DNA from: Tabrizicola sp.
Lineage (GTDB): Bacteria > Pseudomonadota > Alphaproteobacteria > Rhodobacterales > Rhodobacteraceae
Assembly (NCBI RefSeq): GCF_016793705.1
Contig: NZ_JAEULO010000043.1
Coordinates: forward strand, 351-64,350
Length of the DNA stretch: 64,000 nt
Direction of reading: 5' to 3'
In this document: piece by piece, positions 37,127 through 54,045 of the stretch
Layout: the number at the start of each line of letters is the position of its first letter
How positions within the stretch are numbered: the stretch's first letter is position 1
Translations under genes and position numbers: made by a program
Notes under the pieces: model-generated
What the model was told of the DNA's origin: nothing
The model's input: the letters and a program-made list of their open reading frames with translations, nothing else
The model's database searches: none

Positions 37127-37177
37127 CTGCCCGTCTCCATTCCCGACCGCAAAGCACGCGGGTCCGACGGAGTCGTG

Positions 37178-37264: not shown

Positions 37265-37289
37265 GGAACCGCATCTGCCGCCCGGCATT
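37265..37289 (+). promoter_or_regulatory. EcfG-type promoter for the sigma-factor gene (possible autoregulation)
   Basis: GGAAC-N16-CATT. Confidence 0.65.
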
Positions 37290-37318
37290 GACCCCGGCAT
37301 GCCCGATGGAGAGGCCCG

Positions 37319-40689: not shown

Positions 40690-41715
40690 TCAGCGTTGAG
40701 GGATGTTTTCACGAAGGATGATCCGTGGCTCGATGTTCTTCAGCAGAAGATGCGGGGCGGTGGTGGCGATCGCTCCCAAAAGGCGGATGACCGCTTGTTC
40801 GCCCACCAGCTGCACATTCTGGTCGATGACCACATCGATCACTCCGTCTGCAAGCCAGGCATGGGTGCGGTCGGTCAAGTCGTGCATGACGACAACAGGG
40901 CGGCGCGGGGGCCGGACCTCCTCCAGCGCGGCGACGATCCCCGTGCGTCCGGCGCCCACGCAATAGACGCCCGCAAGGTCTGGGGTGCCGCGCAAGAGCT
41001 GGGTCATCGCCACGCGGGTACGGTCACTGCGCTCGCCTGTCTCGATGGGAGGCAACAAGGACAGCGAGGGGAAATCGCGTTCCAGGACGGCGCGAAATCC
41101 GGTCTCGCGGCCCTGATGGCCATCATAGGCGCGCGACCCCATGAAAAGCCCGATGGCTCCGCCAGCGCTGCCTGCCATACGCCCCATCAGCAGCGCCGCC
41201 GTGCGTCCCGCGACGGTGTTGTCGACGCCCACGTAGGCCGAGCGGCCCGAGTCCGGGACGTCGGAGGCAATCGTCACGACCCGCACTCCGGCCTCGCAGA
41301 CGCGGCGGATCGCTTCACGCGATCTTGGGTGGTCGGCGGCGACGAGACCGATGCCGCTGGTGCGCAGGCCAACCGTTTCCAGCGCGGGCAGCAGGGATTC
41401 CGGCCCGAACCCGTCCAGCGTGCGAATATTGCACGAGGCGACCAGCGGGACCGTCGCCGCAAAGCGCCGGATGCCGTTGACCAGTTCGCCCATGAAGCCG
41501 TTCTGCACCATCGGAATGAAGAATTCGAGATGCACGGGACGCGACGGCAGCGTGACCATTCCCTCGACGGGAAGGTAGCCAAGGTCGCGCGCCGCCTGCA
41601 TCACACGATGGCGATTGGCCGCGGCCACTCCGGCGCGACCGTTCAGCACCCGGTCGACCGTCGCGGTCGAAACCCCGGCGCGTCTGGCGATGTCGACGAT
41701 GGTGGACCGGCCCAT
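40690..41715 (-). CDS. LacI-family transcriptional regulator
   Basis: TIVDIARRAGVSTATVDRVLNGR HTH; divergent from the ABC operon. Start re-assigned. Confidence 0.92.
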   Translation of the reverse strand: MGRSTIVDIARRAGVSTATVDRVLNGRAGVAAANRHRVMQAARDLGYLPVEGMVTLPSRPVHLEFFIPMVQNGFMGELVNGIRRFAATVPLVASCNIRTLDGFGPESLLPALETVGLRTSGIGLVAADHPRSREAIRRVCEAGVRVVTIASDVPDSGRSAYVGVDNTVAGRTAALLMGRMAGSAGGAIGLFMGSRAYDGHQGRETGFRAVLERDFPSLSLLPPIETGERSDRTRVAMTQLLRGTPDLAGVYCVGAGRTGIVAALEEVRPPRRPVVVMHDLTDRTHAWLADGVIDVVIDQNVQLVGEQAVIRLLGAIATTAPHLLLKNIEPRIILRENIPQR

Positions 41716-42031
41716 GCGCGGCAGCCTAGAGCCGGATGGGCGGGCTGTCACGGCATTGCTGATGGAATCTGATGTGAACTGCGGTTGCGGCAATCTGTCG
41801 CATCGCCCAAGCTGACCCCATCCGGCGTGGCCTCGTTCAGACGGGCCGCACCGGAAAGCGGCTGCTTCAGGAGGGATGCAGGCCGACTGCCCGACCAGAG
41901 CAAGAACGAGACTGCGACGCGAATTTCGCTGCGGCCCCGATGGGTGGCAAGCTGTCGTGCCGCTGAGAGAACGACCGGCCTGGCCGGAAACCGGGTCAGA
42001 CGACCCAAGGGTCACAAGGAGGAAACCCACG

Positions 42032-42961
42032 ATGATCAAGACGTTGCTTGGCGCCGCCGCTGCGCTTGCCCTGACCGCCGGTCTCGCCGCGGCCGAGGGC
42101 AAGACCTTTTACTGGGTGTCGCATGGCGGCCCGGCCGACCCGGTCTGGACCTATTTCCTGCAAGGCGCCGAGGCCTATGCCAAGACCTCCGGCAACACCG
42201 TCAACACCTCCTTCCACTCGGGCGATGTCCCGAGCCAGCAGGAAGCCGTGCGCGCGGCCATCGCGGCAGGGGCCGACGGCATCTGCTCGACCAGCCCCGA
42301 CCCGGGCTCGATGGTCGATGTGGTGGCCGAGGCCCGGGCTGCGGGTATCCCGATCATCAACTTCAACACCTCGGATTCTGCGCCGAACTGGAATGCCTAT
42401 GTGGGCGGCGACCTGAAGGCCGTGGGCAAGGCCTGGGCGCAGTATCTGGTGGATCATGAGCTGGTGAAGGCTGGCGACTTCGTCTGGATGCCGGTCGAAG
42501 TACCGGGCGCCTCCTACGGCGTTGAGGAGGAAGCCGGGATCAAGGAGGTCTTCGAGCCTCTGGGCATCACCTGGGAAGTCACCGACGCGACGCTGGACCA
42601 GGCCGAGGTGATCACCCGGATGACCGACTACGTCACCGCCAACCGCGACAAGATCAAGGCGATGATCGGCCTTGGCGACATGGTGACCGGATCGGTCAAG
42701 CGGGTCTGGGATCAGGCGGGCGTGCAGCCCGGTGAAATCCCGGTGGTCGGCTGGGGCAACTCGCTCGACACCACGCAAGAGGTGATGGACGGCTATGTAA
42801 ATGCCGGCATGTGGCAGGATCCGCAGGCCACATCGTATCTCTGCCTTTCGGCGCTGCAGATGGAAGGCGACGGCATTCCGCTTGGCTTCAACATCATCAC
42901 TGGCGCGCTCTACGAAAAGGATACGGCGCCGGTCTATTCCAAGATCATGGGCGGCAACTGA
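42032..42961 (+). CDS. Sugar/polyol ABC substrate-binding protein
   Basis: Signal peptide; type I periplasmic binding fold motifs; AGGAGG RBS. Confidence 0.88.
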   Translation: MIKTLLGAAAALALTAGLAAAEGKTFYWVSHGGPADPVWTYFLQGAEAYAKTSGNTVNTSFHSGDVPSQQEAVRAAIAAGADGICSTSPDPGSMVDVVAEARAAGIPIINFNTSDSAPNWNAYVGGDLKAVGKAWAQYLVDHELVKAGDFVWMPVEVPGASYGVEEEAGIKEVFEPLGITWEVTDATLDQAEVITRMTDYVTANRDKIKAMIGLGDMVTGSVKRVWDQAGVQPGEIPVVGWGNSLDTTQEVMDGYVNAGMWQDPQATSYLCLSALQMEGDGIPLGFNIITGALYEKDTAPVYSKIMGGN

Positions 42962-43054
42962 CGCAGGGTTCCTGCACAGTCGGACCGTGACCTTGCCGAA
43001 ACCGCCCGCAGCGATTGCGGGCGGCCCCGGCATCCCTTTCCCCGAGGAACCAGA

Positions 43055-44074
43055 ATGTCCAACCCGTCAACGGTTTCAGCCGTCCATCCCGCCGAGCCGG
43101 GTATCCTGAAGCGCTTCATCGCCAAGCCGGAGTTCGGGCCGCTTGTGCTTCTGGTGGCGATGGTTGTCGTCTTCACCGCGATCAACCCGACGTTCATGTC
43201 ACTGAACAACATCGGCAACGCCCTGACCTTCACCGTCGAGCTGGGGCTGATCGCGCTGGCGATGACGCTTCTGATGACGGCGGGCGAATTCGACCTGTCG
43301 GTTGGGTCGGTCTTCGGATTTGCGCCGGTGGTGATGTGGGCCTTCTTCAACGCCGGGCTGATGCCCCTGCCCGCAGCCTTTCTGGTGGCCATGCTGATCG
43401 CGCTGGGGATCGGGCTTTTCTCCGGCCTCTTCGTCACCCGGCTGGGCATTCCGTCCTTCCTCGTTACGCTGGGGATGCTGCTGGTCGTGCGCGGCGCGGC
43501 CCTTTGGCTGACCTCGGGCTTCCCGCAGCGCACCTGGGACGCGGGCGACCAGTGGCTTGCCAAGCTTCTGGTCGGTGACTTCTACGTGGGCGGTCTGCGC
43601 ATCTACATGAGCCTGATCTGGTTCATCGTCCTGGCGGTGATCTTCCACTACGTCCTGACCCGCACCAGGTTCGGCAACTGGACCCAGGCGACGGGCGGCA
43701 ATCCTGGTGCTGCGCGCAACCGGGGCGTGCCGATCCAGCGGGTCAAGGTGATCCTGTTCATGCTCTCCTCGGCCATGGCGGCGCTGGCCGGGATCATCTC
43801 GTCCATCCGGGTCTCGGCGGCGAACCCGAACTCCGGCACCGGCTACGAGCTGGAGGTCATCGCCATGGTGGTGATCGGCGGCACGGTGCTGACCGGCGGG
43901 CGCGGCACGATCATCGGCACGGTTCTGGGGGTGCTGATCCTGAGGCTGATGCGCAATGGCATCGTCCTGATCGGGGTTCCCGGGCTGGCCTACAACATCT
44001 TCATCGGTGCGATCATCCTGGGGATGATGGCGCTTCATGCCGCGCTGGAACGCCGGCACAACGCGGGGACCTGA
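43055..44074 (+). CDS. Sugar ABC permease (RbsC-like)
   Basis: GEFDLSVGS, IPSFLVTLG, ELEVIAMVVIGGT. Confidence 0.92.
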   Translation: MSNPSTVSAVHPAEPGILKRFIAKPEFGPLVLLVAMVVVFTAINPTFMSLNNIGNALTFTVELGLIALAMTLLMTAGEFDLSVGSVFGFAPVVMWAFFNAGLMPLPAAFLVAMLIALGIGLFSGLFVTRLGIPSFLVTLGMLLVVRGAALWLTSGFPQRTWDAGDQWLAKLLVGDFYVGGLRIYMSLIWFIVLAVIFHYVLTRTRFGNWTQATGGNPGAARNRGVPIQRVKVILFMLSSAMAALAGIISSIRVSAANPNSGTGYELEVIAMVVIGGTVLTGGRGTIIGTVLGVLILRLMRNGIVLIGVPGLAYNIFIGAIILGMMALHAALERRHNAGT

Positions 44075-44076
44075 GC

Positions 44077-44829
44077 ATGAGCGACGAATCTCTTGTCGAG
44101 ATGCGGCATATCGAAAAGTCCTATGGCCGCGTCCATGCCTTGCGCGACGTGAACCTGACGATCCGGAGGGGCGAGATCGTCGGCCTTCTGGGCGACAACG
44201 GCGCCGGGAAATCCACGCTGATCAAGGTGCTTTCGGGTGCGGTGCCCTATACGTCGGGTGAGATCCGCATCAAGGGCAAGCCGGTCAGGATGACCTCGAC
44301 CAACGATGCCATTGCTGCGGGGATCGAGACGATCTACCAGGATTCGGCGCTGGTGCCTCAGCTTTCCATCGCGCGGAACCTGTTCTTGGGGCGCGAGCTG
44401 ACCTCGGGCCATCTGGGGCGACTGGACCTCGACCGGATGAATGAGGTCGCGGCGGACCTGTTGAAGCGGGTGGGCATCTCGAAGAACATCCCGCCCACCA
44501 CGCCCATCGGCTCGCTGTCGGGTGGCGAGCGGCAGGCGGTGGCCATCGCCCGCGCAATGTATTTCGACAGCGACCTGATCATCCTGGACGAGCCGACCAA
44601 CAACCTGGGTGTGGCCGAGACCCAGGGCGTCCTCCGCTTCGTCCGCGAGGCGCGGGACACCGGGCATTCCTGCATCTTCATCGCCCACAACATCCACCAC
44701 GTCTTCCAGGTGGTGGACCGCATGGTGGTGATGCGGCGGGGGACGGTCGTGGCGGATGACCTGAGCCCGAAAACCTCTTCGATCCAGGATGTCGAGGACG
44801 TGATCACCGGGGACCATATCCTCGTCTGA
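44077..44829 (+). CDS. Sugar ABC ATPase (single domain)
   Basis: GDNGAGKST, LSGGERQ, LDEPT. Confidence 0.92.
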   Translation: MSDESLVEMRHIEKSYGRVHALRDVNLTIRRGEIVGLLGDNGAGKSTLIKVLSGAVPYTSGEIRIKGKPVRMTSTNDAIAAGIETIYQDSALVPQLSIARNLFLGRELTSGHLGRLDLDRMNEVAADLLKRVGISKNIPPTTPIGSLSGGERQAVAIARAMYFDSDLIILDEPTNNLGVAETQGVLRFVREARDTGHSCIFIAHNIHHVFQVVDRMVVMRRGTVVADDLSPKTSSIQDVEDVITGDHILV

Positions 44830-44876
44830 GATTGCTTTGATTGGCCGAGGTGGTCCGCCAGCGGAAAGGAGAAGAC

Positions 44877-45905
44877 ATGCGCGCGCTCTACGATCCTGCT
44901 CCCCGCGCGACGGACGAGATCTTCTCGCCCGAAGAGCTTGCCGTTCTGCGGTCGCGCTACGAGGTGACGGAGTGGCAGGGCGAGGATCGGGAGGCCTTCT
45001 ATGCAGAGCACTTGCCGAAGACCGAAATCCTGATCTCGCAGCAGCCGATGGAGTCGGGGCGGCTGGCAATGGCGCCGAAGCTGCGGGCGATCTTCAACGT
45101 CGAGACAAACTTCCTGCCGAACGTGGACTATGCCGAATGCTTCCGGCGCGGCATCCACGTCCTTGCCCCCGGCGCGGTCTTCGCCGCCCCGGTGGCCGAG
45201 ATGGCGCTTGGCATGGCGCTGTCGCTGGCGCGGAACATTCACGGCGAACACGCGGCCTTCCTGACGGGGCAGGAGAAGTGGTTGTTCGAGGGCAACAAGC
45301 AGTCCGAGCTTCTGGCAGGATCAACGGTCGGGATCATCGGCTTTGGTGATCTGGGCCGGTCGCTTTACCGCCTGCTCGCGCCCTTCGGCTGCCGGGTGCA
45401 GGTGTTCGACCCCTGGCTGCCGCACGGTCATCTGAAGCGGCTTGGGGTGGAGCCGGTCGGCTTCGATGCACTGATGGCGGGCAACCGCTTCGTCTTCGTC
45501 ATGGCCACGATCACCACCGACAATGCCGGGATGATCGACTCACGGGCGCTGGGCCTGATGCAGCCCGGCGCAATGCTTCTGCTGATGTCACGCGCGGCAG
45601 CGGCCGATTTCGGTGCGTTGGCCGAAGCGGCTGCCTCGGGGCGCATCCGGGTGGCGACGGACGTCTTCCCGGTCGAGCCGCTGCCCAAGGACGACCCGAT
45701 CCGGGCCGTGCCGAATATGCTCTTTTCGCCCCACCGGGCCGGGGCGCTGACCTTCGCCCTGCGCGAGATCGGGACGCGGGTGCTGGAGGACATGGACCTC
45801 ATCGCCCGCGGCCTGCCGCCGGTCGCCTGCCGCCGTGCCGAGCCCGAGACGGTGGCCCGCATGCGCTCGATGCCCGTCGCCGCCACGCCAGACGAAAAGG
45901 GCTGA
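44877..45905 (+). CDS. D-isomer-specific 2-hydroxyacid dehydrogenase
   Basis: GIIGFGDLG, SR, DVFPVEP, SPHRAG. Confidence 0.85.
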   Translation: MRALYDPAPRATDEIFSPEELAVLRSRYEVTEWQGEDREAFYAEHLPKTEILISQQPMESGRLAMAPKLRAIFNVETNFLPNVDYAECFRRGIHVLAPGAVFAAPVAEMALGMALSLARNIHGEHAAFLTGQEKWLFEGNKQSELLAGSTVGIIGFGDLGRSLYRLLAPFGCRVQVFDPWLPHGHLKRLGVEPVGFDALMAGNRFVFVMATITTDNAGMIDSRALGLMQPGAMLLLMSRAAAADFGALAEAAASGRIRVATDVFPVEPLPKDDPIRAVPNMLFSPHRAGALTFALREIGTRVLEDMDLIARGLPPVACRRAEPETVARMRSMPVAATPDEKG

Positions 45906-45909
45906 GGCG

Positions 45910-47097
45910 ATGGCGGAGCTGTTCGGCGAATCCCTGACGCGGGACGACATCCGGAGGCGGTCGGGCCAGCTTGCGGCCTATGGTGGCGTGCGATTGATGG
46001 AGCTGGCCGATGGCACCGAGCGCGGCATCCGGCTGCTGGAGTTCCGCACCGGGGCGGGCCTGCGCTTCACGGTGCTGGTCGACCGTGCGATGGATATTGC
46101 CGAGGTGGATTGGCGCGGTGCCTCGCTGGGCTGGCACGGGCCTTCGGGGCTGCGGTCGGCGGCCCTGCACGAACCGGAAGGCGAAGGCGGCTTCGGCTGG
46201 GCGCGCAGCTTCACCGGCTTCCTTGTTACCTGCGGGCTGGACCATATCCTTGGCCCGGAAGAGGTGGAGGCCAGCCATTACGGCTATCCTGGTATCCGGA
46301 CCAAGCGGCACGGGCTGCATGGCCGGATCGCCAACATCCCGGCCCGGCTGACCGGCTATGGCGAAAGATGGGACGGCGACCGCTGCATCCTCTGGGCCGA
46401 GGGCGTCGTGCGGCAGGCGACGACCTTCGGCGAATACCTCGTTCTGACCCGGCGGATCGAGGCAGAGCTGGATGGCAGCGAAATCCGGCTGACGGATCGT
46501 GTGACAAACGAAGGCTTTGCGCCGACACCGCATATGTTCTTTTACCACGTCAACCTCGGCGCGCCGCTCTTGGCCGAGGGCGCGCGCTATGTTGCGCCGA
46601 TTGCCGATGTGGTCTGGGCCGCCCATGCGGCGCGCTATCGCGACCAGGGCACCGGCTATGCGGTGGTCCCGGCCCCGCAGGACCGGTTCGTGGAGCAGGT
46701 CTGGCAGCACGAAACCGCGCCGGACGCGGGGGGCGAGGTGCCGGTGGCGCTGATGAACGACCGGCTGGGGCTGGGCCTTCAGGTCACGACCCGCAAGGAC
46801 CAACTGCCCTGCCTGTACGAATGGCAGCATTTCCAGGCCGGGGCCTACGGCTTTGGCATCGAACCCTCGACCCACCATGTCCTTGGAGACAACGCCGCGC
46901 GAGAGCGAGGAGAGATGACCTGGCTGAAAGCGGGCGAGGAGCGCCGCTACGACGCCCGTTTCACCGTTCTGGACGGAGCGGCGACGCTGGGCAAGGCCGA
47001 GGCCCGCATCCGCGCCATCATCGGGCAGCCCGACGATCCTTATCCCACCCCATCGGGCAATTTCCGCCCGCTGACCGTTCCTGCGACGATCCGATGA
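45910..47097 (+). CDS. DUF4432 / aldose-1-epimerase-like protein
   Basis: VLVDRAMDI, LVTCGLDH, LHGRIAN, YHVNLG, GIEP. Confidence 0.8.
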   Translation: MAELFGESLTRDDIRRRSGQLAAYGGVRLMELADGTERGIRLLEFRTGAGLRFTVLVDRAMDIAEVDWRGASLGWHGPSGLRSAALHEPEGEGGFGWARSFTGFLVTCGLDHILGPEEVEASHYGYPGIRTKRHGLHGRIANIPARLTGYGERWDGDRCILWAEGVVRQATTFGEYLVLTRRIEAELDGSEIRLTDRVTNEGFAPTPHMFFYHVNLGAPLLAEGARYVAPIADVVWAAHAARYRDQGTGYAVVPAPQDRFVEQVWQHETAPDAGGEVPVALMNDRLGLGLQVTTRKDQLPCLYEWQHFQAGAYGFGIEPSTHHVLGDNAARERGEMTWLKAGEERRYDARFTVLDGAATLGKAEARIRAIIGQPDDPYPTPSGNFRPLTVPATIR

Positions 47098-47109
47098 CCG
47101 GAGACACCC

Positions 47110-48237
47110 ATGCCAACTGACCAGACTCTTGCCGACCGGCCCGAACCCCTTGTCGAGCGGCGCGACTATTCGCTGACCGGGCCAAGCGCGGCGCTGGCGA
47201 TCGAACGGGGGCTAGCCTCGGCCGAATGGTATCATTCCGATGTGCCGCGCAAGGTAATGAAAGAGTTGATGCAGCGCCGCGACGGACCGGCGATCCGCGA
47301 CACGCTGATCTGGCTGGGTCTTCTGGCCCTGACGGCTGCGGGCGGCATATATTTCTGGGGCAGCTGGTGGTGCGTGCCGTTCTGGGCAGTCTATGGCGTG
47401 CTGTACGGATCAGCCTGCGACAGCCGCTGGCACGAATGCGGCCATGGCACCGCCTTCCGCACGCCCTGGATGAACGATGCGGTCTACCAGATCGCCAGCT
47501 TCATGGTGATGCGCAACCCGGTGTCCTGGCGCTGGAGCCACGCCCGCCACCACACCGACACGATCATCGTCGGCCGCGATGCCGAGATCGCCTTCATGCA
47601 TCCGGCCTCGATCCTGCTGAACATCCTGCATTTCATCGGGATTGTGGACATCTGGCAGTGGATGAAGGTGCTGGTCCGCAACGCCGCAGGCCACCTCACC
47701 CCGGACGAGCGCGACTACATCCCCGAGGCCGAAGTCGGCAAGGCGATCTTCTGGGCCCGGGTGCATGTGGCCATCTATGCCCTGACCCTGGCGGCGGCGA
47801 TCTACTGGCGCACGATCCTGCCCTTCATGCTGATCGGCGGGCCGCGTATCTATGGCGCGTGGCACATGTTCATGACGGGCATGATCCAGCATGGCGGGCT
47901 GGCAGAGGATGTGCTCGACCACCGGCTGAACAGCCGCACCTGCCTGATGAACCCGGTCAGCCGCTGGATCTACTGGAATATGAACTACCATGTGGAGCAT
48001 CATATGTTCCCGATGGTGCCTTACCATGCGCTGCCGCGCCTGCATGAGGTCATCAGGAACGACCTGCCTGCGCCGACCCGCTCGATCCCGGCGGCCTTTG
48101 CCGAGATGGTGCCCGCGATCCTGCGCCAGCGGCGCGAGAAGGGATATTTCCTGAAAAAGACCCTGCCGCCGACCGCGCGCGCCTACCGCGAGGAGCTGCA
48201 CCAGACCATCCCCCACCGTGACGGACTGAAGGAGTGA
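47110..48237 (+). CDS. Membrane di-iron oxygenase, MocD-like (fatty-acid-desaturase superfamily)
   Basis: His boxes HECGH, HARHH, HVEHH; adjacent Rieske ferredoxin. Confidence 0.85.
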   Translation: MPTDQTLADRPEPLVERRDYSLTGPSAALAIERGLASAEWYHSDVPRKVMKELMQRRDGPAIRDTLIWLGLLALTAAGGIYFWGSWWCVPFWAVYGVLYGSACDSRWHECGHGTAFRTPWMNDAVYQIASFMVMRNPVSWRWSHARHHTDTIIVGRDAEIAFMHPASILLNILHFIGIVDIWQWMKVLVRNAAGHLTPDERDYIPEAEVGKAIFWARVHVAIYALTLAAAIYWRTILPFMLIGGPRIYGAWHMFMTGMIQHGGLAEDVLDHRLNSRTCLMNPVSRWIYWNMNYHVEHHMFPMVPYHALPRLHEVIRNDLPAPTRSIPAAFAEMVPAILRQRREKGYFLKKTLPPTARAYREELHQTIPHRDGLKE

Positions 48238-48242
48238 CCGCG

Positions 48243-48557
48243 ATGCAATGGGTTTCCGCCTGCGCCCTGGACGACATCGACCCCGAGGACCTGGTCCGCT
48301 TCGACCACGGCGGCAGGACCTATGCGATCTACCGCGATGAGGATGGCGCTGTCTTCGCCACCGATGGGCTTTGCACGCATGAGCAGGTGCATCTCTGCGA
48401 CGGGCTGGTGATGGGCGACGAGATCGAATGCCCCAAGCACAACGGTCGCTTCAACTACAAGACCGGCGAGGCCGAACGACTGCCTTGCGTGACCACGCTC
48501 AGGACCCATCCGGCGCGTGTGGTGGGCGAGATGATCGAGATCGGGCTGGAGGACTGA
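48243..48557 (+). CDS. Rieske [2Fe-2S] ferredoxin, MocE-like
   Basis: CTHEQVHL and ECPKHNGRF. Confidence 0.9.
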   Translation: MQWVSACALDDIDPEDLVRFDHGGRTYAIYRDEDGAVFATDGLCTHEQVHLCDGLVMGDEIECPKHNGRFNYKTGEAERLPCVTTLRTHPARVVGEMIEIGLED

Positions 48558-48558
48558 C

Positions 48559-49392
48559 ATGGCACGTACCCGCCCGACCGTTGCCGACCTGCGCGCCTGG
48601 AAGGGCAAGCGGCAGCTGACCATGCTGCGCCTCTTCACCCTCGACGAGGCCGCCGCCGCCGAAGAGGCCGGGATCGACCTGGTCTCGATTCCGCCGGATC
48701 TCGTGCTGGATCCGGAATACCGCAAGGTTGCACCCACGCTCTTCTCGATGTCGGGCATGGATCACCTTGGTGCGGGCACGCGGGAGGATTACCTGCGGCT
48801 TTGCGGCAAGCTGCTCTCCGCCGGGGCCGACGCGATGTATTGCTCGGCCAGCATCGACACCGTGCGCTATCTGGCGTCCGAGCATATCCCGGTGGTCGGC
48901 CATGTCGGCCTTGTCCCCAGCCGCGCCACCTGGACCGGCGGCTTCCGCGCTGTGGGCAAGACGGCGGATCAGGCGCTGGCGCTTTATAGGGAATGTCTGG
49001 CCTATGAGGCAGCCGGTGCGTTCGCGGTCGAGATCGAGGTCGTGCCCGAAGAAGTCGCAACCGAAATCAGCCACCGGATGAAGCAACTGCTTCTGTGGTC
49101 GATGGGGTCCGGGGCAGGCTGCGATGCGCAATACCTGTTTGCCATGGATATCCTGGGTGAGCATCGGGGAAAGATGCCCCGTCACTCCAAAGTTTACCGC
49201 GACTTTGCGGCGGAGTACGACCGCCTCCAGCGCGAGAGGGTGGCGGCCTTCACCGAATTCCGCACGGATGTTGAGACCGGCCGCTTCCCGGAGGCCCGCT
49301 TCACGCTGCACATGGTGCCCGAGGAACTGGCAAGGTTCAGTTCGGCGCTGGAGCAAGAGGGTATCGGGGCGGAAAGCACCGGCGAAACCTGA
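48559..49392 (+). CDS. Divergent PanB-like (ketopantoate hydroxymethyltransferase fold) protein
   Basis: PVVGHVGLVP, GGFRAVGK, VEIEVVP and GSGAGCDAQ are retained; LVGDS, ADLPF and VKIEG are absent. Confidence 0.8.
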   Translation: MARTRPTVADLRAWKGKRQLTMLRLFTLDEAAAAEEAGIDLVSIPPDLVLDPEYRKVAPTLFSMSGMDHLGAGTREDYLRLCGKLLSAGADAMYCSASIDTVRYLASEHIPVVGHVGLVPSRATWTGGFRAVGKTADQALALYRECLAYEAAGAFAVEIEVVPEEVATEISHRMKQLLLWSMGSGAGCDAQYLFAMDILGEHRGKMPRHSKVYRDFAAEYDRLQRERVAAFTEFRTDVETGRFPEARFTLHMVPEELARFSSALEQEGIGAESTGET

Positions 49393-49469: not shown

Positions 49470-50138
49470 TCAGGCCGCGACCAGCCGCAATATCGTATCG
49501 ATGTTGAAGTGGAGCCGCTCCTCCAGCGCCTCCTTGGTCATGAGGTCGCGCTCGAACACGATGGATCCGGTGAAACGGTTCGTCAGATAGTAATAGCCGA
49601 TGGCGGCGACCGTGATGTTCAACTGCACCGGGTCGACGCCCTTGCGGAAGACGCCCGCGGCAACACCGCGTTCGAGGATCGACTGAACCATCGAGACGAA
49701 TCGGCGGCTGTAGTCCTTCACCGTTTCCGACTTCTTCAGATGCTTGGCGCGGTGCAGGTTCTCGCTGTTCACCAGTGTGATGAATTCCGGGTTCTTCAGG
49801 TAATAGTCCCAGGTGAATCGGACCAGGCGTTCCAGGGCCTCGCGCGGGTCCAGATGGTCGAGATTCAGCTTCTGCTCCGCGATGCGGATATCGAGATAAG
49901 CGTTTTCCAGCACGGTCTGGAACAAGCGTTCTTTCGAATCGAAGTAGTGATAGATCATCCGTTTGTTTGCGCGCGCCTTCTCGGCGATCACGTCCACCCG
50001 CGCGCCGCCCAGGCCGCTCTTTGCAAATTCGCGCTTCGCGGCCTCCAGGATGCGGGCCTTTGTCGCCTCTGCATCCCGGATGCGCGGTTTCTGGGCAGGC
50101 TTCGCCTTCCCTTGGGCTGTGTTCTCACTGGCGTCCAT
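49470..50138 (-). CDS. TetR-family regulator (RutR-like C-domain)
   Basis: ILEAAKREFAKSGLGGARVDVIA, MIYHYF. Start re-assigned to 50138. Confidence 0.92.
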   Translation of the reverse strand: MDASENTAQGKAKPAQKPRIRDAEATKARILEAAKREFAKSGLGGARVDVIAEKARANKRMIYHYFDSKERLFQTVLENAYLDIRIAEQKLNLDHLDPREALERLVRFTWDYYLKNPEFITLVNSENLHRAKHLKKSETVKDYSRRFVSMVQSILERGVAAGVFRKGVDPVQLNITVAAIGYYYLTNRFTGSIVFERDLMTKEALEERLHFNIDTILRLVAA

Positions 50139-50256
50139 CAATCCACTCCCAGGGCATCGGTTTTTGCCGCCTGCGGCGCTGATCCCCTGCCTGCGACCAA
50201 AGCCCGCACTGTTGCAGGTTGCAACAAACATCTTGACTCGGGGGTCAGCTGTCAAG

Positions 50257-50275
50257 TAACCAGTTAGTGCATTAA
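50257..50275 (+). promoter_or_regulatory. Candidate operator/promoter motif copy 1
   Basis: TAACCAGTTAGTGCATTAA. Confidence 0.6.
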
Positions 50276-50368
50276 CGGAGAGGCGTGCGCTGATGACGCA
50301 GGTGTCCGCCCCCGCCGAAGGCAGGGCCACGCTTCCGTGGCATTGGAGTGGAAAAAGGGAGGGAATCC

Positions 50369-51481
50369 ATGTCCACGTTCATCAAGGACTTCGTCGAACG
50401 CGAGAAGATCAACCGTCGGAACTTCCTGTTCGCCTCGGCTGCCGGCCTGACGGCCACGGCAGTTCCGGGCATCCTCGGTCGCGGCGCGGCGTTTGCCGAC
50501 GCGGGTGGCTGGTCGCTGGCCTGGAGCTATCGTGACCGAGCCTCGGCCTACTGGAACGCCATCGTTTCGGGTGGTGAGGCCTATGTCGAGAGCCTTGGCT
50601 TGACCAAGGAAGACATGACGAACCTGATCAACGAGGGGTCGTCCGAAAAGTCGCTCGCCGACATCAAGGCCTTCCTTGCCAAGAATGCCGGCAAGGGCGC
50701 CATTGCCAGCGATCCGAACGACAGCCCGAACGCACGTCCGGTCGTGGAGGCGGTGCGGGACGCTGGCGGCTATGTCTCGACGATCTGGAACAAGACCGAT
50801 GACCTGCATCCCTGGGACATCGGCGACAACTATGTCGCGCACCTGTCCTGGTCGGGCGAAAAGCCCTCGGAGGACGCCGCGCGCCTGCTGTTCGAGAAGA
50901 TGGGTGGAGAAGGCGGCGTCGTCCATCTGGGCGGCATTCCGGCCAACATCCCGGCGGTCGAGCGCCTGAACGGCCTGAAGAACGCTCTGAAGGATTTCCC
51001 GAACATCGAGCTTCTGGACGAACAGTCCGCCGACTGGGACACCAACAAGGCCGCCGAGCTGATGTCGAGCTACCTGACCCGCTATGGCGACAAGATCAAG
51101 GGCGTGCACTGCGCCAACGACAACATGGCCTACGGGGTCATCGAGGCGCTGAAGGCGGAAGGTATTACCGGCATGCCGATCACCGCCTTCGACGGCAACC
51201 CGGAAGCGGTGGATCTGGTGATGAAGGGCGAGCTTCTGGCTACCGTCTTCACCAACCCGCATTGGGGTGGCGGCATCGCGCTGGCCCTGGCGCACCAGGC
51301 CGCCATCGGGGCCTTCAAGCCCTCGGAGGAGCCCAACGAGCATCGCGAGTTCTATGGGCCGTCGATCCTTGTCACTCAGGCAGATGCCGAAGAGTTCAAG
51401 AAGACCTACCTGGACGCGACCCCGACCTATGACTGGACTGATCGTTGGGGCCTGTCGGCGGGCGGTATTGTCTACAAGTAA
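50369..51481 (+). CDS. Sugar ABC substrate-binding protein, Tat-exported
   Basis: INRRNFLFA twin-arginine signal; RbsB-like HCANDNMAYG. Confidence 0.9.
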   Translation: MSTFIKDFVEREKINRRNFLFASAAGLTATAVPGILGRGAAFADAGGWSLAWSYRDRASAYWNAIVSGGEAYVESLGLTKEDMTNLINEGSSEKSLADIKAFLAKNAGKGAIASDPNDSPNARPVVEAVRDAGGYVSTIWNKTDDLHPWDIGDNYVAHLSWSGEKPSEDAARLLFEKMGGEGGVVHLGGIPANIPAVERLNGLKNALKDFPNIELLDEQSADWDTNKAAELMSSYLTRYGDKIKGVHCANDNMAYGVIEALKAEGITGMPITAFDGNPEAVDLVMKGELLATVFTNPHWGGGIALALAHQAAIGAFKPSEEPNEHREFYGPSILVTQADAEEFKKTYLDATPTYDWTDRWGLSAGGIVYK

Positions 51482-51493
51482 GGCCTGACCAAC

Positions 51494-51520
51494 GGGGAAC
51501 CGGGCGCAAGTCCGGTCCCC
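51494..51520 (+). terminator. Stem-loop after the binding-protein gene
   Basis: GGGGAACCGGGC-GCAA-GTCCGGTCCCC. Confidence 0.55.
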
Positions 51521-51562
51521 CAGCCTTTTGCCCCTGCGGGGCTGTCGCCAAGGGAGGGTGGC

Positions 51563-52528
51563 GTGACACGATTTCTGACCCGGGAAGCCGCCATCCGCTG
51601 GGCGCCCCTGCTGGTGCTGATCGCGCTGGTGATCCTGTTCACGGCGATCAATCCGGATTTCTTCGCGCAGCGGAACTTTGCCCGCATTGCGATTGCCGCG
51701 GCGCCCGCCCTGATGGTGGCGATCGGCGTGACCTTCATCATCGTCATGGGCTCGATCGACCTGTCGATGGAGGGCGCGGTTTCGCTGACGGCGGTGCTGT
51801 TCTGCTTCGCCTTCCTGTGGCTGGGGGGCACGTTGGCGGCAGGGGGGTGGCTGGCCATCCCGCTTGCCCTGATCGTCGGAGGACTGATCGGGCTGATCAA
51901 CGGGCTCGTTCATGTCAAGCTGCGCATCCCCTCCTTCATGGCAAGCCTGGCAATGGGGTTTGTCGGGACGGGTGCCGCCGTGCTGATCACCGGCGGCGAT
52001 ATCGTGCGGATCGAGGACGACACTTTCCGGGCGCTTCTGACCTGGCGCATCGCGGGCTTTCCGCTGATGGTCTATGTCGTGGTCATTCTGGCCTTCCTGG
52101 CCTGGTTCATCCAGAACCACACCACGCTGGGTCGGAACTTCTATGCCGTGGGTGGCGGCGAGGAGCTTGCCCACGCCTCGGGGCTGAACGTTCGGCGGGT
52201 TCGGATCACCGGTTTCGTGCTCGCGGGCGTGTTCTATGCCATCGCCGGGATGCTGCAGGTCGCCAAGCTGGGCCAGGCGGAATCGGTCACTGGCGCGAAT
52301 TTCATGTTCATCTCGATCACCTCGGTCGTGGTCGGGGGTGTCGCGCTCTGGGGTGGCATCGGCGGGGTCTGGAACACGGTCGTCGGCGTGCTGATCGTGA
52401 ACGTCATCAACAACGGCATGGTCGTGATCGGACTGCCCGACTATGTGCAGGACGGCATGCTGGGGCTTCTGGTGATCCTGGCAGTGGTCCTCTCGACCGA
52501 CCGGCGCAACATCAGCTTCGTGAAATAG
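51563..52528 (+). CDS. Sugar ABC permease
   Basis: GSIDLSM, IPSFMASL, SVVVGGVALWGG. Confidence 0.92.
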   Translation: MTRFLTREAAIRWAPLLVLIALVILFTAINPDFFAQRNFARIAIAAAPALMVAIGVTFIIVMGSIDLSMEGAVSLTAVLFCFAFLWLGGTLAAGGWLAIPLALIVGGLIGLINGLVHVKLRIPSFMASLAMGFVGTGAAVLITGGDIVRIEDDTFRALLTWRIAGFPLMVYVVVILAFLAWFIQNHTTLGRNFYAVGGGEELAHASGLNVRRVRITGFVLAGVFYAIAGMLQVAKLGQAESVTGANFMFISITSVVVGGVALWGGIGGVWNTVVGVLIVNVINNGMVVIGLPDYVQDGMLGLLVILAVVLSTDRRNISFVK

Positions 52529-52539
52529 GGGGGCGGGCG

Positions 52540-54045
52540 ATGTACGAACTCAAGGCGGTCGACAAGAAGTTTCCCGGTGTCCATGCGCTGAAGGCAGTGG
52601 ATTTCCAGGTCAAGCGCGGTGAGATCGTCGGCCTTGTCGGCGAGAACGGTGCCGGCAAGTCCACCCTGATGAAGGTGATCTACGGCGCCTATCAGCCCGA
52701 CGGCGGCACCATTACCATCGACGGCAAGACCGTGCGCTTCCAGAACCCGCGTCAGGCGATGGAAAAGGGCATCGGCATGGTGTTCCAGGAACAGTCGCTG
52801 ATTTCCAACCTGACGGTCATGGAGAACATCTTCCTGGGTTATGAAGCGCAGTTCGTGCGTCTGGGCGTGATCAACTGGAAGGCCATGGCCGAGGCTGCGC
52901 GAAAGCAACTGGCCAAGGTGAAGCTCGACATCGATCCGGCCACGGTGACGGCCAGCCTGTCCTTTGCGCAGCGCCAGCTGGTCGAGTTGGCCAAGGTGCT
53001 CACGCTTGAGGAGCGGGTCGACGGCGACCTGGTCATCCTTCTGGACGAGCCCACCAGTGTTCTGGCCGAGGACGAGGTCAAGATGCTGTTCCGCATCGTT
53101 CGCGACCTGACGGCACGGGCGAGCTTCATCTTTGTCAGTCACCGCATGGACGAGGTGATGGAGCTTTCCGACCGAATCTATGTGATGAAAGACGGGGCGG
53201 TGGTCGATGTGGTCAACCGGGGCGGCGCCACGGTCGAGCAGATCCAGCACAAGATGGTGGGCCGCAACGTCGACCGGGAATATTACCGTGAGCAGCGCCA
53301 GAAACCCTATGATGACAGCCGCCAGCTGGTGAAGCTGGAGGACGTTGGCCTGCCGGGTCGGATCAGCGACATCTCGCTGACCCTGCATCCGGGCGAGGTA
53401 TTGTGTCTGGTTGGTACCGAAGGCTCGGGCCGCGAGGCGATCCTGCGCACGATCTACGGGATGCGGACCCCCGTGACCGGGCATGTCACGATGAAGGGCG
53501 CGCGGATCGAACGCTTCACCCCGCAGGCGGCGGTCGCGAAGGGCGTCGGCTATGTCCCGCGCGAACGCAAGGTCGAGGGCATCGTCGCGGGGATGAACGT
53601 TTACGAGAACATGACGCTGTCGCAGATGGGTCATTTCTCGAACGCCGGCGTTCTGCGTGTCGGCGAAGAGCGCAAGCTGGCGCGCGACTGGATCGGAAAG
53701 CTGTCGATCAAGGCGCATTCCGAATACGCCGATTGTGGCAACCTTTCAGGCGGGAACCAGCAGAAGGTGGTACTGGCAAAGTGGCGATCCGGCGGGTCGG
53801 ACATCATGCTTCTGGATCACCCGACGCGCGGCCTCGACATCGGCGCCAAGGAAGACGTCTACGAGATGATCCGCGACATGTGCGACGACGGAGTGGGTGT
53901 CATCCTGGTCGCCGACACGCTGGAAGAGGCGATCGGGCTTTCTCACACGATCATCGTCCTCAAGGACGGCCGCATCCAGAAACGCTTTGACTGCGAGCCG
54001 GGCAAGAAGCCTTCGCTTTACGATCTCCTGCACGCGATGATCTGA
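52540..54045 (+). CDS. Sugar ABC ATPase (two-domain, RbsA-like)
   Basis: GENGAGKST, LSGGNQQKVV. Start re-assigned to 52540. Confidence 0.93.
   Translation: MYELKAVDKKFPGVHALKAVDFQVKRGEIVGLVGENGAGKSTLMKVIYGAYQPDGGTITIDGKTVRFQNPRQAMEKGIGMVFQEQSLISNLTVMENIFLGYEAQFVRLGVINWKAMAEAARKQLAKVKLDIDPATVTASLSFAQRQLVELAKVLTLEERVDGDLVILLDEPTSVLAEDEVKMLFRIVRDLTARASFIFVSHRMDEVMELSDRIYVMKDGAVVDVVNRGGATVEQIQHKMVGRNVDREYYREQRQKPYDDSRQLVKLEDVGLPGRISDISLTLHPGEVLCLVGTEGSGREAILRTIYGMRTPVTGHVTMKGARIERFTPQAAVAKGVGYVPRERKVEGIVAGMNVYENMTLSQMGHFSNAGVLRVGEERKLARDWIGKLSIKAHSEYADCGNLSGGNQQKVVLAKWRSGGSDIMLLDHPTRGLDIGAKEDVYEMIRDMCDDGVGVILVADTLEEAIGLSHTIIVLKDGRIQKRFDCEPGKKPSLYDLLHAMI

What the first reader, a model, noticed from the sequence alone, without database searches (positions are those of the whole stretch)
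40690..49392. Candidate undescribed pathway: oxygenase-driven C1 removal from a methylated sugar or cyclitol
Seen: one LacI-divergent, tightly packed operon encoding a sugar ABC transporter, D-2-hydroxyacid dehydrogenase, DUF4432 epimerase-like protein, His-box di-iron oxygenase, Rieske ferredoxin and a PanB-fold protein. Established: MocD/MocE(/MocF) are proposed to demethylate the rhizopine 3-O-methyl-scyllo-inosamine, and PanB reversibly moves a hydroxymethyl group on or off C3 of a 2-oxo acid. No iol or mocABC genes are in the window. Inference: the oxygenase hydroxylates a methyl group, the dehydrogenase makes the 2-oxo acid, and the PanB-like enzyme releases the C1 unit by retro-aldol cleavage (C-demethylation of a branched sugar acid). 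Alternatively it captures formaldehyde from O-demethylation.
Basis: inference. Interest (0 to 1): 0.8.

Follow-up and report, generated by a model that had tools for sequence, protein, structure and literature searches.

The report
Sugar demethylase operon with PanB-like partner
A sugar-uptake operon carries a membrane oxygenase that probably strips a methyl group off a sugar, next to an altered PanB-like enzyme. In related genomes that enzyme sits with folate one-carbon genes, so it most likely passes the released formaldehyde to tetrahydrofolate, a role not described for this fold.

Summary
Window 40690-49392 holds a divergent LacI gene and eight tightly packed genes: a CUT2 sugar ABC importer, a D-2-hydroxyacid dehydrogenase, DUF4432, a three-His-box MocD-like oxygenase, a MocE-family Rieske ferredoxin and a PanB-fold protein (PanBL).

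The conserved core is MocD-MocE-(MocF)-PanBL. It recurs in Rhodobacterales, Rhizobium, Sinorhizobium, Mesorhizobium and low-GC marine Alphaproteobacteria. The dehydrogenase and DUF4432 are variable.

Three results point to the function.
- A genuine rhizopine locus reads mocD-mocE-mocF-PanBL-purU. PurU follows PanBL in at least 8 loci, and FolD follows PurU in 3-4 of them.
- In an Akkermansiaceae genome, PanBL sits 5 bp upstream of a close homologue of the characterised 6-O-methyl-galactose demethylase P450.
- All PanBLs lack PanB's Mg2+/2-oxoacid residues (D45, S46, D84, K112, E114) but keep H136 and E181.

Its alternative, formaldehyde capture after O-demethylation, is supported and sharpened: PanBL probably loads the C1 unit onto tetrahydrofolate. 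The substrate is unknown. None of the biochemistry has been tested. I found no paper describing this partnership.

The parts
40690..41715 (-). LacI-family repressor, divergent from the operon
   Evidence: PF00356 plus PF13407. Orthologues at 83-95% identity occupy the same position in L001-L003, and LacI is divergent from MocD in Rhizobium, Sinorhizobium and Mesorhizobium loci.
41758..41825 (.). Conserved block in the LacI/binding-protein intergenic region, with an imperfect inverted repeat TGCGGCA-ATC-TGTCGCA at 41786-41802 (candidate operator or promoter)
   Evidence: This is the only strongly conserved stretch in the alignment with the L001-L003 intergenic regions. The consensus promoter scan and the repeat finder returned nothing. 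The role is inferred.
42032..42961 (+). Periplasmic sugar-binding protein (CUT2 type) with a signal peptide-like N-terminus
   Evidence: PF13407. The best NCBIfam hit is the rhizopine binding protein, but at 58 bits against a cut-off of 420, so the ligand is unassigned. It is 70-95% identical to binding proteins of other MocD-PanBL operons.
43055..44074 (+). ABC permease (ribose/arabinose type)
   Evidence: PF02653. NCBIfam hits to the RbsC/AraH type are below cut-off.
44077..44829 (+). ABC ATPase (single cassette)
   Evidence: PF00005.
44877..45905 (+). D-isomer 2-hydroxyacid dehydrogenase; a variable accessory gene with unknown substrate
   Evidence: PF02826. The closest solved structure is 4hy3, an uncharacterised 'phosphoglycerate oxidoreductase', at E 5e-96. 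Among PanBL loci it occurs only in the Tabrizicola clade, with a 44% identical copy in Pelagibacteraceae loci.
45910..47097 (+). DUF4432, an aldose-1-epimerase-like protein placed directly upstream of the oxygenase
   Evidence: PF14486, E 6e-96. It matches 3ty1, a 'hypothetical aldose 1-epimerase'. The DUF4432-MocD-MocE-PanBL order recurs in Gemmobacter, Mesorhizobium and other Rhodobacterales. In Paenibacillus a canonical Aldose_epim gene holds the same position.
47110..48237 (+). MocD-like integral-membrane di-iron (three His-box) oxygenase; proposed methyl hydroxylase
   Evidence: PF00487. His boxes lie at 47431-47445, 47539-47553 and 47989-48003, and there are hydrophobic segments. It is 61.8% identical to the MocD of a genuine rhizopine locus.
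48243..48557 (+). MocE-family Rieske [2Fe-2S] ferredoxin, electron donor to the oxygenase
   Evidence: TIGR02377 above cut-off. The CxH...CxxH motif lies at 48372-48440, and an AAGGAG ribosome-binding site precedes ATG 48243.
48559..49392 (+). PanBL: a PanB-fold TIM barrel lacking PanB's Mg2+/2-oxoacid site; proposed acceptor that passes the released C1 unit to tetrahydrofolate
   Evidence: The AlphaFold2 model has pLDDT 83.6. The best fold matches are PanB structures at TM about 0.7.

Best explanation
This is a LacI-controlled catabolic operon for an imported methylated monosaccharide or cyclitol whose identity is unknown.

Proposed steps:
1. The CUT2 ABC system brings the compound in.
2. The membrane di-iron oxygenase (MocD-like) hydroxylates an O-methyl group. 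It receives electrons through the MocE Rieske ferredoxin from a reductase encoded elsewhere in the genome.
3. The resulting hemiacetal falls apart into the free sugar and formaldehyde.
4. PanBL takes this C1 unit, either as free formaldehyde or straight from the hemiacetal, and places it on tetrahydrofolate as 5,10-methylene-THF. This is the reverse of the folate half of the PanB reaction. No enolate has to be stabilised, which would explain why the Mg2+/2-oxoacid half of the PanB site has been lost while H136 and E181 remain.
5. Housekeeping FolD and PurU then yield formate and reducing power, or the C1 unit is assimilated.
6. DUF4432 (mutarotase-like) and the 2-hydroxyacid dehydrogenase process the demethylated sugar.

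Shown here: gene content, synteny, fold, loss of active-site residues, and the gene neighbourhoods.
Inferred: O-demethylation as the chemistry in this operon, THF as the acceptor, the roles of DUF4432 and the dehydrogenase, and the substrate class.
For: 1. The core MocD-MocE-(MocF)-PanBL recurs across distant lineages, with or without the other genes. In S. meliloti pSymB, downstream of the divergent LacI gene, the unit is only these four genes. Pairwise identities of PanBL and its adjacent MocD correlate at r = 0.80 over 67 loci.

2. A Rhizobium indicum plasmid locus has an iolE-like gene, a GFO/IDH/MocA gene, and a regulator that passes the NCBIfam 'rhizopine MocR' equivalog (739 against 650). 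That locus reads MocD-MocE-MocF-PanBL-PurU. MocDEF is the proposed 3-O-methyl-scyllo-inosamine demethylase (Bahar et al. 1998, as cited in PMC10107442).

3. PurU lies next to PanBL in L060, L072, L077, L078, L084, L092, L105 and L109, which cover Rhizobium, Mesorhizobium, Nitratireductor, Phyllobacterium, Lichenihabitans and one unclassified metagenome-assembled genome. FolD follows PurU in L060, L077 and L105, and as a remnant in L072.

4. PanBL neighbours five kinds of oxygenase: the FA_desaturase type (74 of 141 loci), the FA_hydroxylase type (27), PhyH (13), 2OG-Fe(II) (6) and a P450. The P450 starts 5 bp after PanBL. Its best solved-structure match is 6G5O/6G5Q at E 8.8e-103, which is the characterised 6-O-methyl-D-galactose demethylase that releases formaldehyde.

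5. PanBL has the PanB fold. It lacks D45, S46, D84, K112 and E114, which are invariant in four canonical PanBs, and it keeps H136 and E181.

6. R. leguminosarum carries a canonical panB beside panC in addition to PanBL, so PanBL is not the pantothenate enzyme there.

7. There is a functional precedent. DmmD, a THF-binding partner of dimethylamine monooxygenase, is thought to conjugate released formaldehyde to THF in marine bacteria that have only the THF-linked C1 route (PMC5520151).

8. Mutarotase-type genes sit directly upstream of MocD in several architectures, and sugar dehydrogenase, lactonase and dehydratase genes lie nearby. This marks the substrate as a sugar rather than a lipid.
Against: - No enzyme activity has been measured for any PanBL, and MocDEF demethylation is itself a genetic proposal.
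- The window operon has no PurU, FolD or ferredoxin reductase.
- No oxygenase of the families scored (FA_desaturase, FA_hydroxylase, PhyH, 2OG-Fe(II)) lies within 5 kb of PanBL in 53 of 141 loci. Some of these are truncated contigs and one is the P450 locus. Many Actinomycetota, Verrucomicrobia and Burkholderiales copies stand in unrelated contexts, so PanBL is not an obligate oxygenase subunit.
- Paenibacillus and Burkholderia MocDE(F) clusters lack PanBL.
- In Pelagibacteraceae, PanBL lies beside a PanE/ApbA-type 2-oxoacid reductase. Both there and in the window a 2-hydroxyacid dehydrogenase is present. This would also fit a 2-oxoacid acceptor.
- The THF-binding site of PanB is not defined structurally, so THF binding by PanBL cannot be read from the sequence.
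- The locus counts are not phylogenetically independent, and retrieval was capped.
Confidence: 0.55

Rival explanations
1. The oxygenase hydroxylates a C-methyl branch, the 2-hydroxyacid dehydrogenase makes the 2-oxo acid, and PanBL removes the hydroxymethyl group by a PanB-type retro-aldol reaction. The net result is C-demethylation of a branched sugar acid.
For: PanBL has the PanB fold and keeps E181 and H136. A 2-hydroxyacid dehydrogenase is in the window operon. Pelagibacteraceae loci carry a related dehydrogenase and a PanE/ApbA-like reductase near PanBL.
Against: All five PanB residues that bind Mg2+ and the 2-oxo acid are replaced in every PanBL examined. The dehydrogenase is absent from most MocD-MocE-PanBL loci, including the minimal S. 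meliloti and R. leguminosarum units. PanBL also occurs in the rhizopine locus and next to a 6-O-methyl-galactose demethylase homologue, where the methyl group is on oxygen.
Confidence: 0.07
2. PanBL fixes formaldehyde without folate. It adds formaldehyde to a 2-oxo acid such as pyruvate, and the product is then reduced by the 2-hydroxyacid dehydrogenase or a PanE-like reductase.
For: From my own knowledge, canonical PanB can use free formaldehyde in vitro. 2-Oxoacid reductases occur in the window and in Pelagibacteraceae PanBL loci, and an HpcH/HpaI aldolase sits next to PanBL there.
Against: The enolate-stabilising Mg2+ site is lost. Most loci have no such reductase. It is PurU and FolD, not 2-oxoacid enzymes, that recur directly after PanBL.
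Confidence: 0.12
3. PanBL has no C1 role. The oxygenase hydroxylates or desaturates a sugar C-H bond, for example on a deoxy sugar, and PanBL acts on the carbon skeleton of the product as a lyase, isomerase or hydratase of the isocitrate-lyase/PEP-mutase superfamily.
For: The superfamily is catalytically diverse (fold hits). The marine loci carry deoxy-sugar-type genes, including RhaM, lactonases and sugar-acid dehydratases. Many PanBLs stand alone.
Against: This does not explain the PurU/FolD adjacency, the rhizopine locus, or the pairing with a P450 closest to a proven O-demethylase. It would also require one product type to arise from five unrelated oxygenase families.
Confidence: 0.15
4. 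The link is coincidental. MocD is a lipid desaturase or hydroxylase, and PanBL is a divergent housekeeping ketopantoate hydroxymethyltransferase.
For: The automatic names are 'fatty acid desaturase' and '3-methyl-2-oxobutanoate hydroxymethyltransferase'. One Verrucomicrobial PanBL lies between ribD and prmA.
Against: The pair is conserved with sugar transporters and LacI across phyla. Rhizobium keeps a separate canonical panB-panC pair. PanBL fails the NCBIfam PanB cut-offs and lacks the catalytic metal site.
Confidence: 0.03

Closest known systems
MocD/MocE/MocF of rhizopine (3-O-methyl-scyllo-inosamine) catabolism in Sinorhizobium meliloti L5-30 and Rhizobium leguminosarum
   Same: A His-box membrane oxygenase plus a MocE-family Rieske ferredoxin, in a sugar or cyclitol uptake and catabolism context. 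The window MocD is 61.8% identical, and PanBL 59.6% identical, to the copies in a genuine moc locus.
   Different: The window has no mocA, mocB, mocC or mocR, no iol genes and no MocF. It uses a LacI rather than a MocR regulator. The binding protein is far below the rhizopine-binding-protein cut-off. DUF4432 and a 2-hydroxyacid dehydrogenase are added. The substrate is therefore probably not rhizopine.
PanB, ketopantoate hydroxymethyltransferase (EC 2.1.2.11, PF02548)
   Same: Same TIM-barrel fold (TM about 0.7 to 3vav, 3ez4, 1o68 and 1m3u). H136, E181 and the GxGxG...D.Q C-terminal half are conserved. PanB chemistry uses 5,10-methylene-THF.
   Different: The GDS loop is deleted, and D84, K112 and E114 are replaced (by G/S/A, Y/M and S/A/G/P). 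PanBL is below both NCBIfam PanB cut-offs. It is encoded beside oxygenases rather than panC, and coexists with a canonical panB in Rhizobium.
Cytochrome P450 6-O-methyl-D-galactose demethylase system of marine Bacteroidetes, with its linked formaldehyde detoxification (PMC6292453, PMC9400963)
   Same: Oxidative O-demethylation of a methyl sugar that releases formaldehyde, which then needs a dedicated sink. A close homologue of this P450 directly follows a PanBL gene in an Akkermansiaceae genome.
   Different: The window uses a membrane di-iron oxygenase with a Rieske ferredoxin, not a P450. The Zobellia sink is the ribulose monophosphate pathway, whereas here the proposed sink is THF through a PanB-fold protein.
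THF-binding partners of other demethylating enzymes: DmmD of dimethylamine monooxygenase and the GcvT-like domain of TMAO demethylase, with purU/folD C1 modules (PMC5520151)
   Same: An accessory protein encoded with an oxygenase. It is not needed for the oxygenation itself and is proposed to conjugate the released formaldehyde to THF. The link to FolD and PurU is the same.
   Different: Those proteins have the GcvT (aminomethyltransferase) fold and act after N-demethylation. PanBL has an unrelated PanB/isocitrate-lyase-superfamily fold and is tied to sugar O-demethylation.

Membership tests
MocDEF-type oxygenase system (rhizopine demethylation) | Integral-membrane FA_desaturase-family oxygenase with three histidine boxes | tested here: met
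   PF00487 at 113 bits. HECGH, HARHH and HVEHH are present, along with hydrophobic segments.
MocDEF-type oxygenase system (rhizopine demethylation) | MocE-family Rieske 2Fe-2S ferredoxin encoded immediately downstream | tested here: met
   TIGR02377 at 153.9 bits against a cut-off of 136.15. The motif C47-x-H...C66-x-x-H is present.
MocDEF-type oxygenase system (rhizopine demethylation) | MocF ferredoxin reductase in the operon | tested here: not met
   There is no MocF homologue anywhere in the 64-kb window. MocF is present in 46 of 141 related loci.
MocDEF-type oxygenase system (rhizopine demethylation) | Linkage to mocA/mocB/mocC, the MocR regulator and inositol catabolism | tested here: not met
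   tblastn with MocA, MocB, MocC, MocR, IolD and IolE found nothing in the window. The regulator is a LacI-family protein.
MocDEF-type oxygenase system (rhizopine demethylation) | Substrate is 3-O-methyl-scyllo-inosamine and the products are scyllo-inosamine plus a C1 unit | not testable with these tools
   This needs ligand-binding and enzyme assays.
PanB / ketopantoate hydroxymethyltransferase | PanB (beta/alpha)8 fold | tested here: met
   The top 28 Foldseek hits are all PanB structures, with E down to 2.8e-18 and TM 0.59-0.75. The model has pLDDT 83.6.
PanB / ketopantoate hydroxymethyltransferase | Curated family score | tested here: inconclusive
   PanBL passes the Pfam gathering score (127.6 against 28.7) but only over profile positions 91-258. 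It fails NCBIfam NF001452 (113.5 against 272) and TIGR00222 (88 against 207.55).
PanB / ketopantoate hydroxymethyltransferase | Mg2+ and 2-oxoacid binding residues D45, S46, D84, K112 and E114 (E. coli numbering; the roles are recalled from the published PanB structures) | tested here: not met
   These residues are invariant in the E. coli, R. leguminosarum, E. faecium and P. distasonis PanBs. In all seven PanBLs aligned they are replaced by P/A, variable residues, G/S/A, Y/M and S/A/G/P.
PanB / ketopantoate hydroxymethyltransferase | H136 and the general acid/base E181 | tested here: met
   Both are conserved in every PanBL.
PanB / ketopantoate hydroxymethyltransferase | Pantothenate-pathway gene context (panC, panE) | tested here: not met
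   In the window PanBL follows the oxygenase and ferredoxin. R. leguminosarum has a separate panC-panB pair. Only the Pelagibacteraceae loci have a PanE-like neighbour.
LacI-regulated CUT2 sugar ABC uptake operon | Peripla_BP_4 binding protein, BPD_transp_2 permease, ABC ATPase and a divergent LacI gene | tested here: met
   The transporter is orthologous (70-95% identity) to those of other MocD-PanBL operons.
THF-linked oxidative demethylation module (oxygenase + THF-binding C1 acceptor + FolD/PurU) | purU and/or folD encoded with the demethylase | tested here: not met
   Both are absent from the window. PurU is present next to PanBL in 8 related loci, and FolD in 3-4.
THF-linked oxidative demethylation module (oxygenase + THF-binding C1 acceptor + FolD/PurU) | Acceptor protein with a GcvT-type THF-binding fold | tested here: not met
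   PanBL has the PanB fold, not the GcvT fold. If the function is the same, it is an analogue rather than a member.
THF-linked oxidative demethylation module (oxygenase + THF-binding C1 acceptor + FolD/PurU) | Formation of 5,10-methylene-THF from the removed methyl group | not testable with these tools
   This needs an enzyme assay or isotope tracing.

The most novel reading that the evidence does not exclude
PanBL is a previously unrecognised enzyme family. It is a PanB-derived, metal-site-less, tetrahydrofolate-dependent formaldehyde- or hemiacetal-capturing enzyme, which would make it a folate counterpart of Fae and Gfa. Unrelated oxygenases (di-iron, Fe/2OG, P450) have repeatedly recruited it so that methyl groups removed from sugars and cyclitols enter the folate C1 pool. 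Its spread in Pelagibacteraceae and other streamlined marine Alphaproteobacteria would mean that methylated sugars are a C1 and energy source in the ocean.
Probability: 0.45. Interest if true: 0.85.

Novelty: new variant of a known kind. Interest (0 to 1): 0.68.

Why it matters
**Annotation.** Databases name every member of this family as the pantothenate enzyme PanB. That name is very probably wrong, and it hides a family of about 130 clusters at 50% identity (E <= 1e-30).

**Biochemistry.** If PanBL loads oxygenase-released formaldehyde onto tetrahydrofolate, three things follow.
- It would fill a long-assumed 'spontaneous' step in folate-linked C1 metabolism with a dedicated enzyme.
- It would explain how bacteria that have only the folate route tolerate oxidative demethylation.
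- It would add two unreported genes, PanBL and purU, to the rhizopine catabolic locus that is being engineered for plant-microbe signalling.

**Ecology.** It also flags methylated sugars or cyclitols as substrates of abundant freshwater and marine bacteria.

**Limit.** The substrate of this particular operon remains open.

Tried and rejected
- **Wider locus scan.** A 5-sequence alignment worked.
- **Source contig.** An exact look-up of the window's PanBL found nothing. The organism is inferred only from the nearest Tabrizicola/Paracoccaceae genomes.
- **MocD against solved structures.** No hit.
- **Regulatory signals.** Promoter, terminator and inverted-repeat scans of the operon gave nothing above chance. 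The only regulatory lead is a conserved intergenic block.
- **F40.** This conserved 348-aa protein stands in for DUF4432 and the dehydrogenase in sister operons. It has no Pfam match, no profile match to DUF4432 (probability 0.06) and no significant match to solved structures. It could not be folded here because it is not encoded in the window.
- **Dehydrogenase context.** The R. leguminosarum homologue of the 2-hydroxyacid dehydrogenase is a stand-alone gene and gave no information.
- **Literature.** Searches for MocD/MocE, DUF4432, rhizopine plus hydroxymethyltransferase, PanB plus formaldehyde plus demethylation, PanB plus desaturase plus ferredoxin, and pinitol demethylation found no description of the PanB-like partner. 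The search for a paper giving the PanB catalytic residues found none, so their roles are cited from memory and backed by conservation.
- **Considered and rejected.** Lipid desaturation and housekeeping PanB (see rivals). Rhizopine as the substrate here, because there are no moc or iol genes and the binding protein is different.

Full report
**1. What is in the window**

A LacI-family gene lies at 40690-41715 on the minus strand. It faces eight plus-strand genes:

| Gene | Coordinates | Evidence |
|---|---|---|
| CUT2-type binding protein | 42032-42961 | PF13407 |
| Permease | 43055-44074 | PF02653 |
| ABC ATPase | 44077-44829 | PF00005 |
| D-2-hydroxyacid dehydrogenase | 44877-45905 | PF02826 |
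| DUF4432 | 45910-47097 | PF14486, E 6e-96 |
| FA_desaturase-family membrane protein | 47110-48237 | PF00487; His boxes HECGH, HARHH, HVEHH |
| Rieske ferredoxin | 48243-48557 | passes the NCBIfam 'MocE family' cut-off |
| PanB-like protein (PanBL) | 48559-49392 | PF02548, partial |

The gaps between these genes run from -4 to 93 bp.

PanBL matches the Pfam PanB model only over profile positions 91-258. It fails both NCBIfam PanB cut-offs.

The window holds no iol, mocABC, mocR, mocF, purU or folD homologue.

The flanks are unrelated. Ku and LigD lie upstream. Downstream there is a TetR-controlled second sugar transporter with aldehyde dehydrogenase, GMC oxidoreductase and CoA-transferase genes.

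The nearest relatives are Tabrizicola/Paracoccaceae genomes, which carry the whole operon in the same order at 79-97% protein identity.

**2. What is conserved and what is not**

Two scans of one-genome-per-species contigs, plus plasmid records, gave 141 loci with a PanBL gene, 133 of them with distinct sequences.

The recurrent unit is MocD-MocE-(MocF)-PanBL. Within 5 kb of PanBL, a MocD-type gene occurs in 74 loci, MocE in 71 and a MocF-type reductase in 46.

- In S. meliloti pSymB, the unit downstream of the divergent LacI gene is only these four genes. An R. leguminosarum plasmid has the same four genes, with only remnants of a LacI gene upstream.
- In Rhizobium sp. Kim5 the order is LacI | MocD MocE PanBL, then binding protein, permease, ATPase and a hypothetical gene. 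Its transporter is 76-90% identical to the window's.
- In Mesorhizobium the order is binding protein, permease, ATPase, DUF4432, MocD, MocE, PanBL.
- In low-GC marine alphaproteobacterial single-cell genomes, a divergent CUT2 transporter is followed by MocD, MocF, MocE, PanBL, a second MocD, sometimes a second PanBL, an FA_hydroxylase-type oxygenase, a lactonase and sugar-acid dehydratases.

The 2-hydroxyacid dehydrogenase is confined to the Tabrizicola clade, with a 44% identical relative in Pelagibacteraceae loci. DUF4432 occurs in 15 loci.

Pairwise identities of PanBL and its adjacent MocD correlate at r = 0.80 over 67 loci. This fits joint inheritance, although shared phylogeny contributes to the correlation.

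**3. The rhizopine locus and the folate link**

A Rhizobium indicum plasmid carries an iolE-type gene, a GFO/IDH/MocA dehydrogenase, and a regulator that passes NCBIfam's equivalog for the rhizopine regulator MocR (739 against 650). These are followed by MocD, MocE, MocF, PanBL and PurU. That PanBL is 59.6% identical to the window's, and the PurU passes TIGR00655.

The published description of this catabolic region lists mocDEF, mocR, mocBA and mocC only (PMC10107442).

PurU lies beside PanBL in eight loci from at least five genera, in differing orders and orientations. FolD follows PurU in three loci, passing its NCBIfam cut-off in the one tested (L077), and as a remnant in the rhizopine locus.

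FolD plus PurU is the standard route from 5,10-methylene-THF to formate. In these operons PanBL is the only candidate for making methylene-THF.

**4. PanBL pairs with oxygenases of several unrelated kinds**

Besides the MocD type, PanBL neighbours these oxygenases:
- FA_hydroxylase-type di-iron enzymes in 27 loci. One example is Phyllobacterium, which reads PanBL, FA_hydroxylase, MocE, MocF, PurU, FolD.
- PhyH-type dioxygenases in 13 loci.
- 2OG-Fe(II) dioxygenases in 6 loci.

In an Akkermansiaceae genome a cytochrome P450 starts 5 bp after PanBL. Its best match among solved structures, by a wide margin, is 6G5O/6G5Q (E 8.8e-103; the next hit is 6.6e-38). This is the Zobellia enzyme shown to demethylate 6-O-methyl-D-galactose to galactose and formaldehyde.

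Bacteria using that sugar need a formaldehyde sink (PMC9400963).

**5. PanBL is not a working PanB**

The AlphaFold2 model (pLDDT 83.6) matches PanB structures best, at TM about 0.7. More distant matches are to isocitrate-lyase/PEP-mutase superfamily members.

I aligned PanBLs from seven lineages with canonical PanBs from E. coli, R. leguminosarum and E. faecium (both beside panC), and Parabacteroides.
- D45, S46, D84, K112 and E114 are invariant in the canonical enzymes. They are replaced in every PanBL, and the GDS loop is deleted.
- H136, E181 and the C-terminal GxGxG...D.Q region are kept.

From the published PanB structures, which I recall rather than re-read, the lost residues hold Mg2+ and the 2-oxo acid, and E181 is the general acid/base.

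R. leguminosarum carries both a canonical panB and a PanBL. Canonical PanB homologues are on 122 Rhizobium plasmid records.

**6. Interpretation**

The simplest reading is as follows. The oxygenase hydroxylates an O-methyl group of the imported sugar or cyclitol. The hemiacetal releases formaldehyde. PanBL transfers this C1 unit to THF. Loss of the enolate-stabilising half of the PanB site fits a reaction that breaks a C-O bond, or captures free formaldehyde, rather than a C-C bond.

The closest functional precedent is DmmD, the THF-binding partner of dimethylamine monooxygenase. DmmD is not needed for oxygenation and is proposed to conjugate the released formaldehyde to THF in marine bacteria that have only the folate C1 route (PMC5520151).

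Mutarotase-type genes sit directly before MocD in three architectures: DUF4432 here, Aldose_epim in Paenibacillus and RhaM in marine loci. Together with the nearby sugar dehydrogenase, lactonase and dehydratase genes, this argues for a free sugar substrate and against lipids.

**7. Weak points**

- Nothing has been assayed.
- The window lacks PurU, FolD and a reductase.
- No oxygenase of the four families scored was detected within 5 kb of PanBL in 53 of 141 loci. Some of these are truncated contigs, and one is the P450 locus of section 4. Actinomycetota, Verrucomicrobia and Burkholderiales copies often stand in unrelated contexts. PanBL may therefore act on free formaldehyde in general, or do something else.
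- Paenibacillus and Burkholderia MocDE(F) clusters lack PanBL.
- In Pelagibacteraceae, PanBL lies near a PanE/ApbA-type reductase, DUF1907, an HpcH aldolase and a relative of the window's dehydrogenase. This keeps a 2-oxoacid acceptor alive as a minority reading.
- Locus retrieval was pattern-based and capped, and about 30 of the marine loci are near-duplicates.

**8. Comparison, novelty and verdict**

The operon works like the MocDEF system but is not a rhizopine locus. PanBL has the PanB fold but fails PanB's defining active-site test. As a folate-linked demethylation module it resembles the DmmD and Tdm systems, with an unrelated fold in the acceptor slot.

Ten full-text searches found no paper that describes a PanB-like partner of MocDE or of sugar demethylases.

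I classify it as a new variant of a known kind. Its primary mechanism is not supported, and its alternative is supported and refined. The substrate of this operon and the roles of DUF4432 and the dehydrogenase remain unresolved.

Noticed in passing
window 49470-62804: There is a second, separate unit downstream. It holds a TetR gene (49470-50138, minus strand), another CUT2-type binding protein (50348-51481) with permeases, and then aldehyde dehydrogenase, GMC oxidoreductase, aldo-keto reductase (minus strand), CoA-transferase, enoyl-CoA hydratase and a DUF4147/MOFRL glycerate-kinase-like gene. It is not syntenic with the operon in L001-L003.
   Followed up: partly
window 33844-37300: Non-homologous end-joining genes (LigD with polymerase, ligase and phosphoesterase domains, and Ku) lie upstream on the minus strand. 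They are unrelated to the finding.
   Followed up: no
L063:13115-14161, L025:10804-11841, L015:13739-14785 and seven more loci: A conserved protein of about 348 aa ('F40') has no Pfam match and no profile similarity to DUF4432. In sister operons that share the window's transporter, it takes the place of DUF4432 and the dehydrogenase, and is usually followed by two GFO/IDH/MocA oxidoreductases. Its function is unknown.
   Followed up: partly
L128:9959-11649; L036:8149-10831 and 15480-16313; protein P0121: PanBL is duplicated in marine genomes. One locus has two tandem copies flanked by three PhyH genes. One single-cell genome locus has three copies. One 542-aa representative looks like a fusion of two PanBL domains.
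   Followed up: no
L125 and L127 (Candidatus Pelagibacter sp. HIMB1748), about 4700-20000: The Pelagibacteraceae PanBL sits in a cluster with PhyH, a 2OG-Fe(II) oxygenase, a PanE/ApbA-like reductase, DUF1907, an HpcH/HpaI aldolase, aldehyde dehydrogenase, an IolD-like enzyme, GFO oxidoreductases, a 2-hydroxyacid dehydrogenase and a CUT2 transporter. There is no MocD. This looks like a cyclitol or sugar-acid pathway of unknown substrate.
   Followed up: partly
L072:13737-14227; L066:11862-12649; L088:995-1821: Several accessory genes are decayed. In the rhizopine locus, FolD after PurU is split into two pieces. PanBL is frameshifted in S. meliloti RCAM1750, where IS elements also cut the locus. 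PurU is frameshifted in L088.
   Followed up: no
window 41758-41825: A conserved intergenic block holds an imperfect inverted repeat, TGCGGCA-ATC-TGTCGCA (41786-41802). It may be the LacI operator. The consensus scans did not detect it.
   Followed up: partly
L071 (R. leguminosarum Vaf-108 plasmid) 2768-10056: This is a related cluster without PanBL. It holds a CUT2 transporter, a GFO oxidoreductase, a TIM-barrel isomerase, an FA_hydroxylase-type oxygenase and a MocD-type oxygenase, next to iolE and iolD. It is a candidate methyl-inositol demethylation locus.
   Followed up: no
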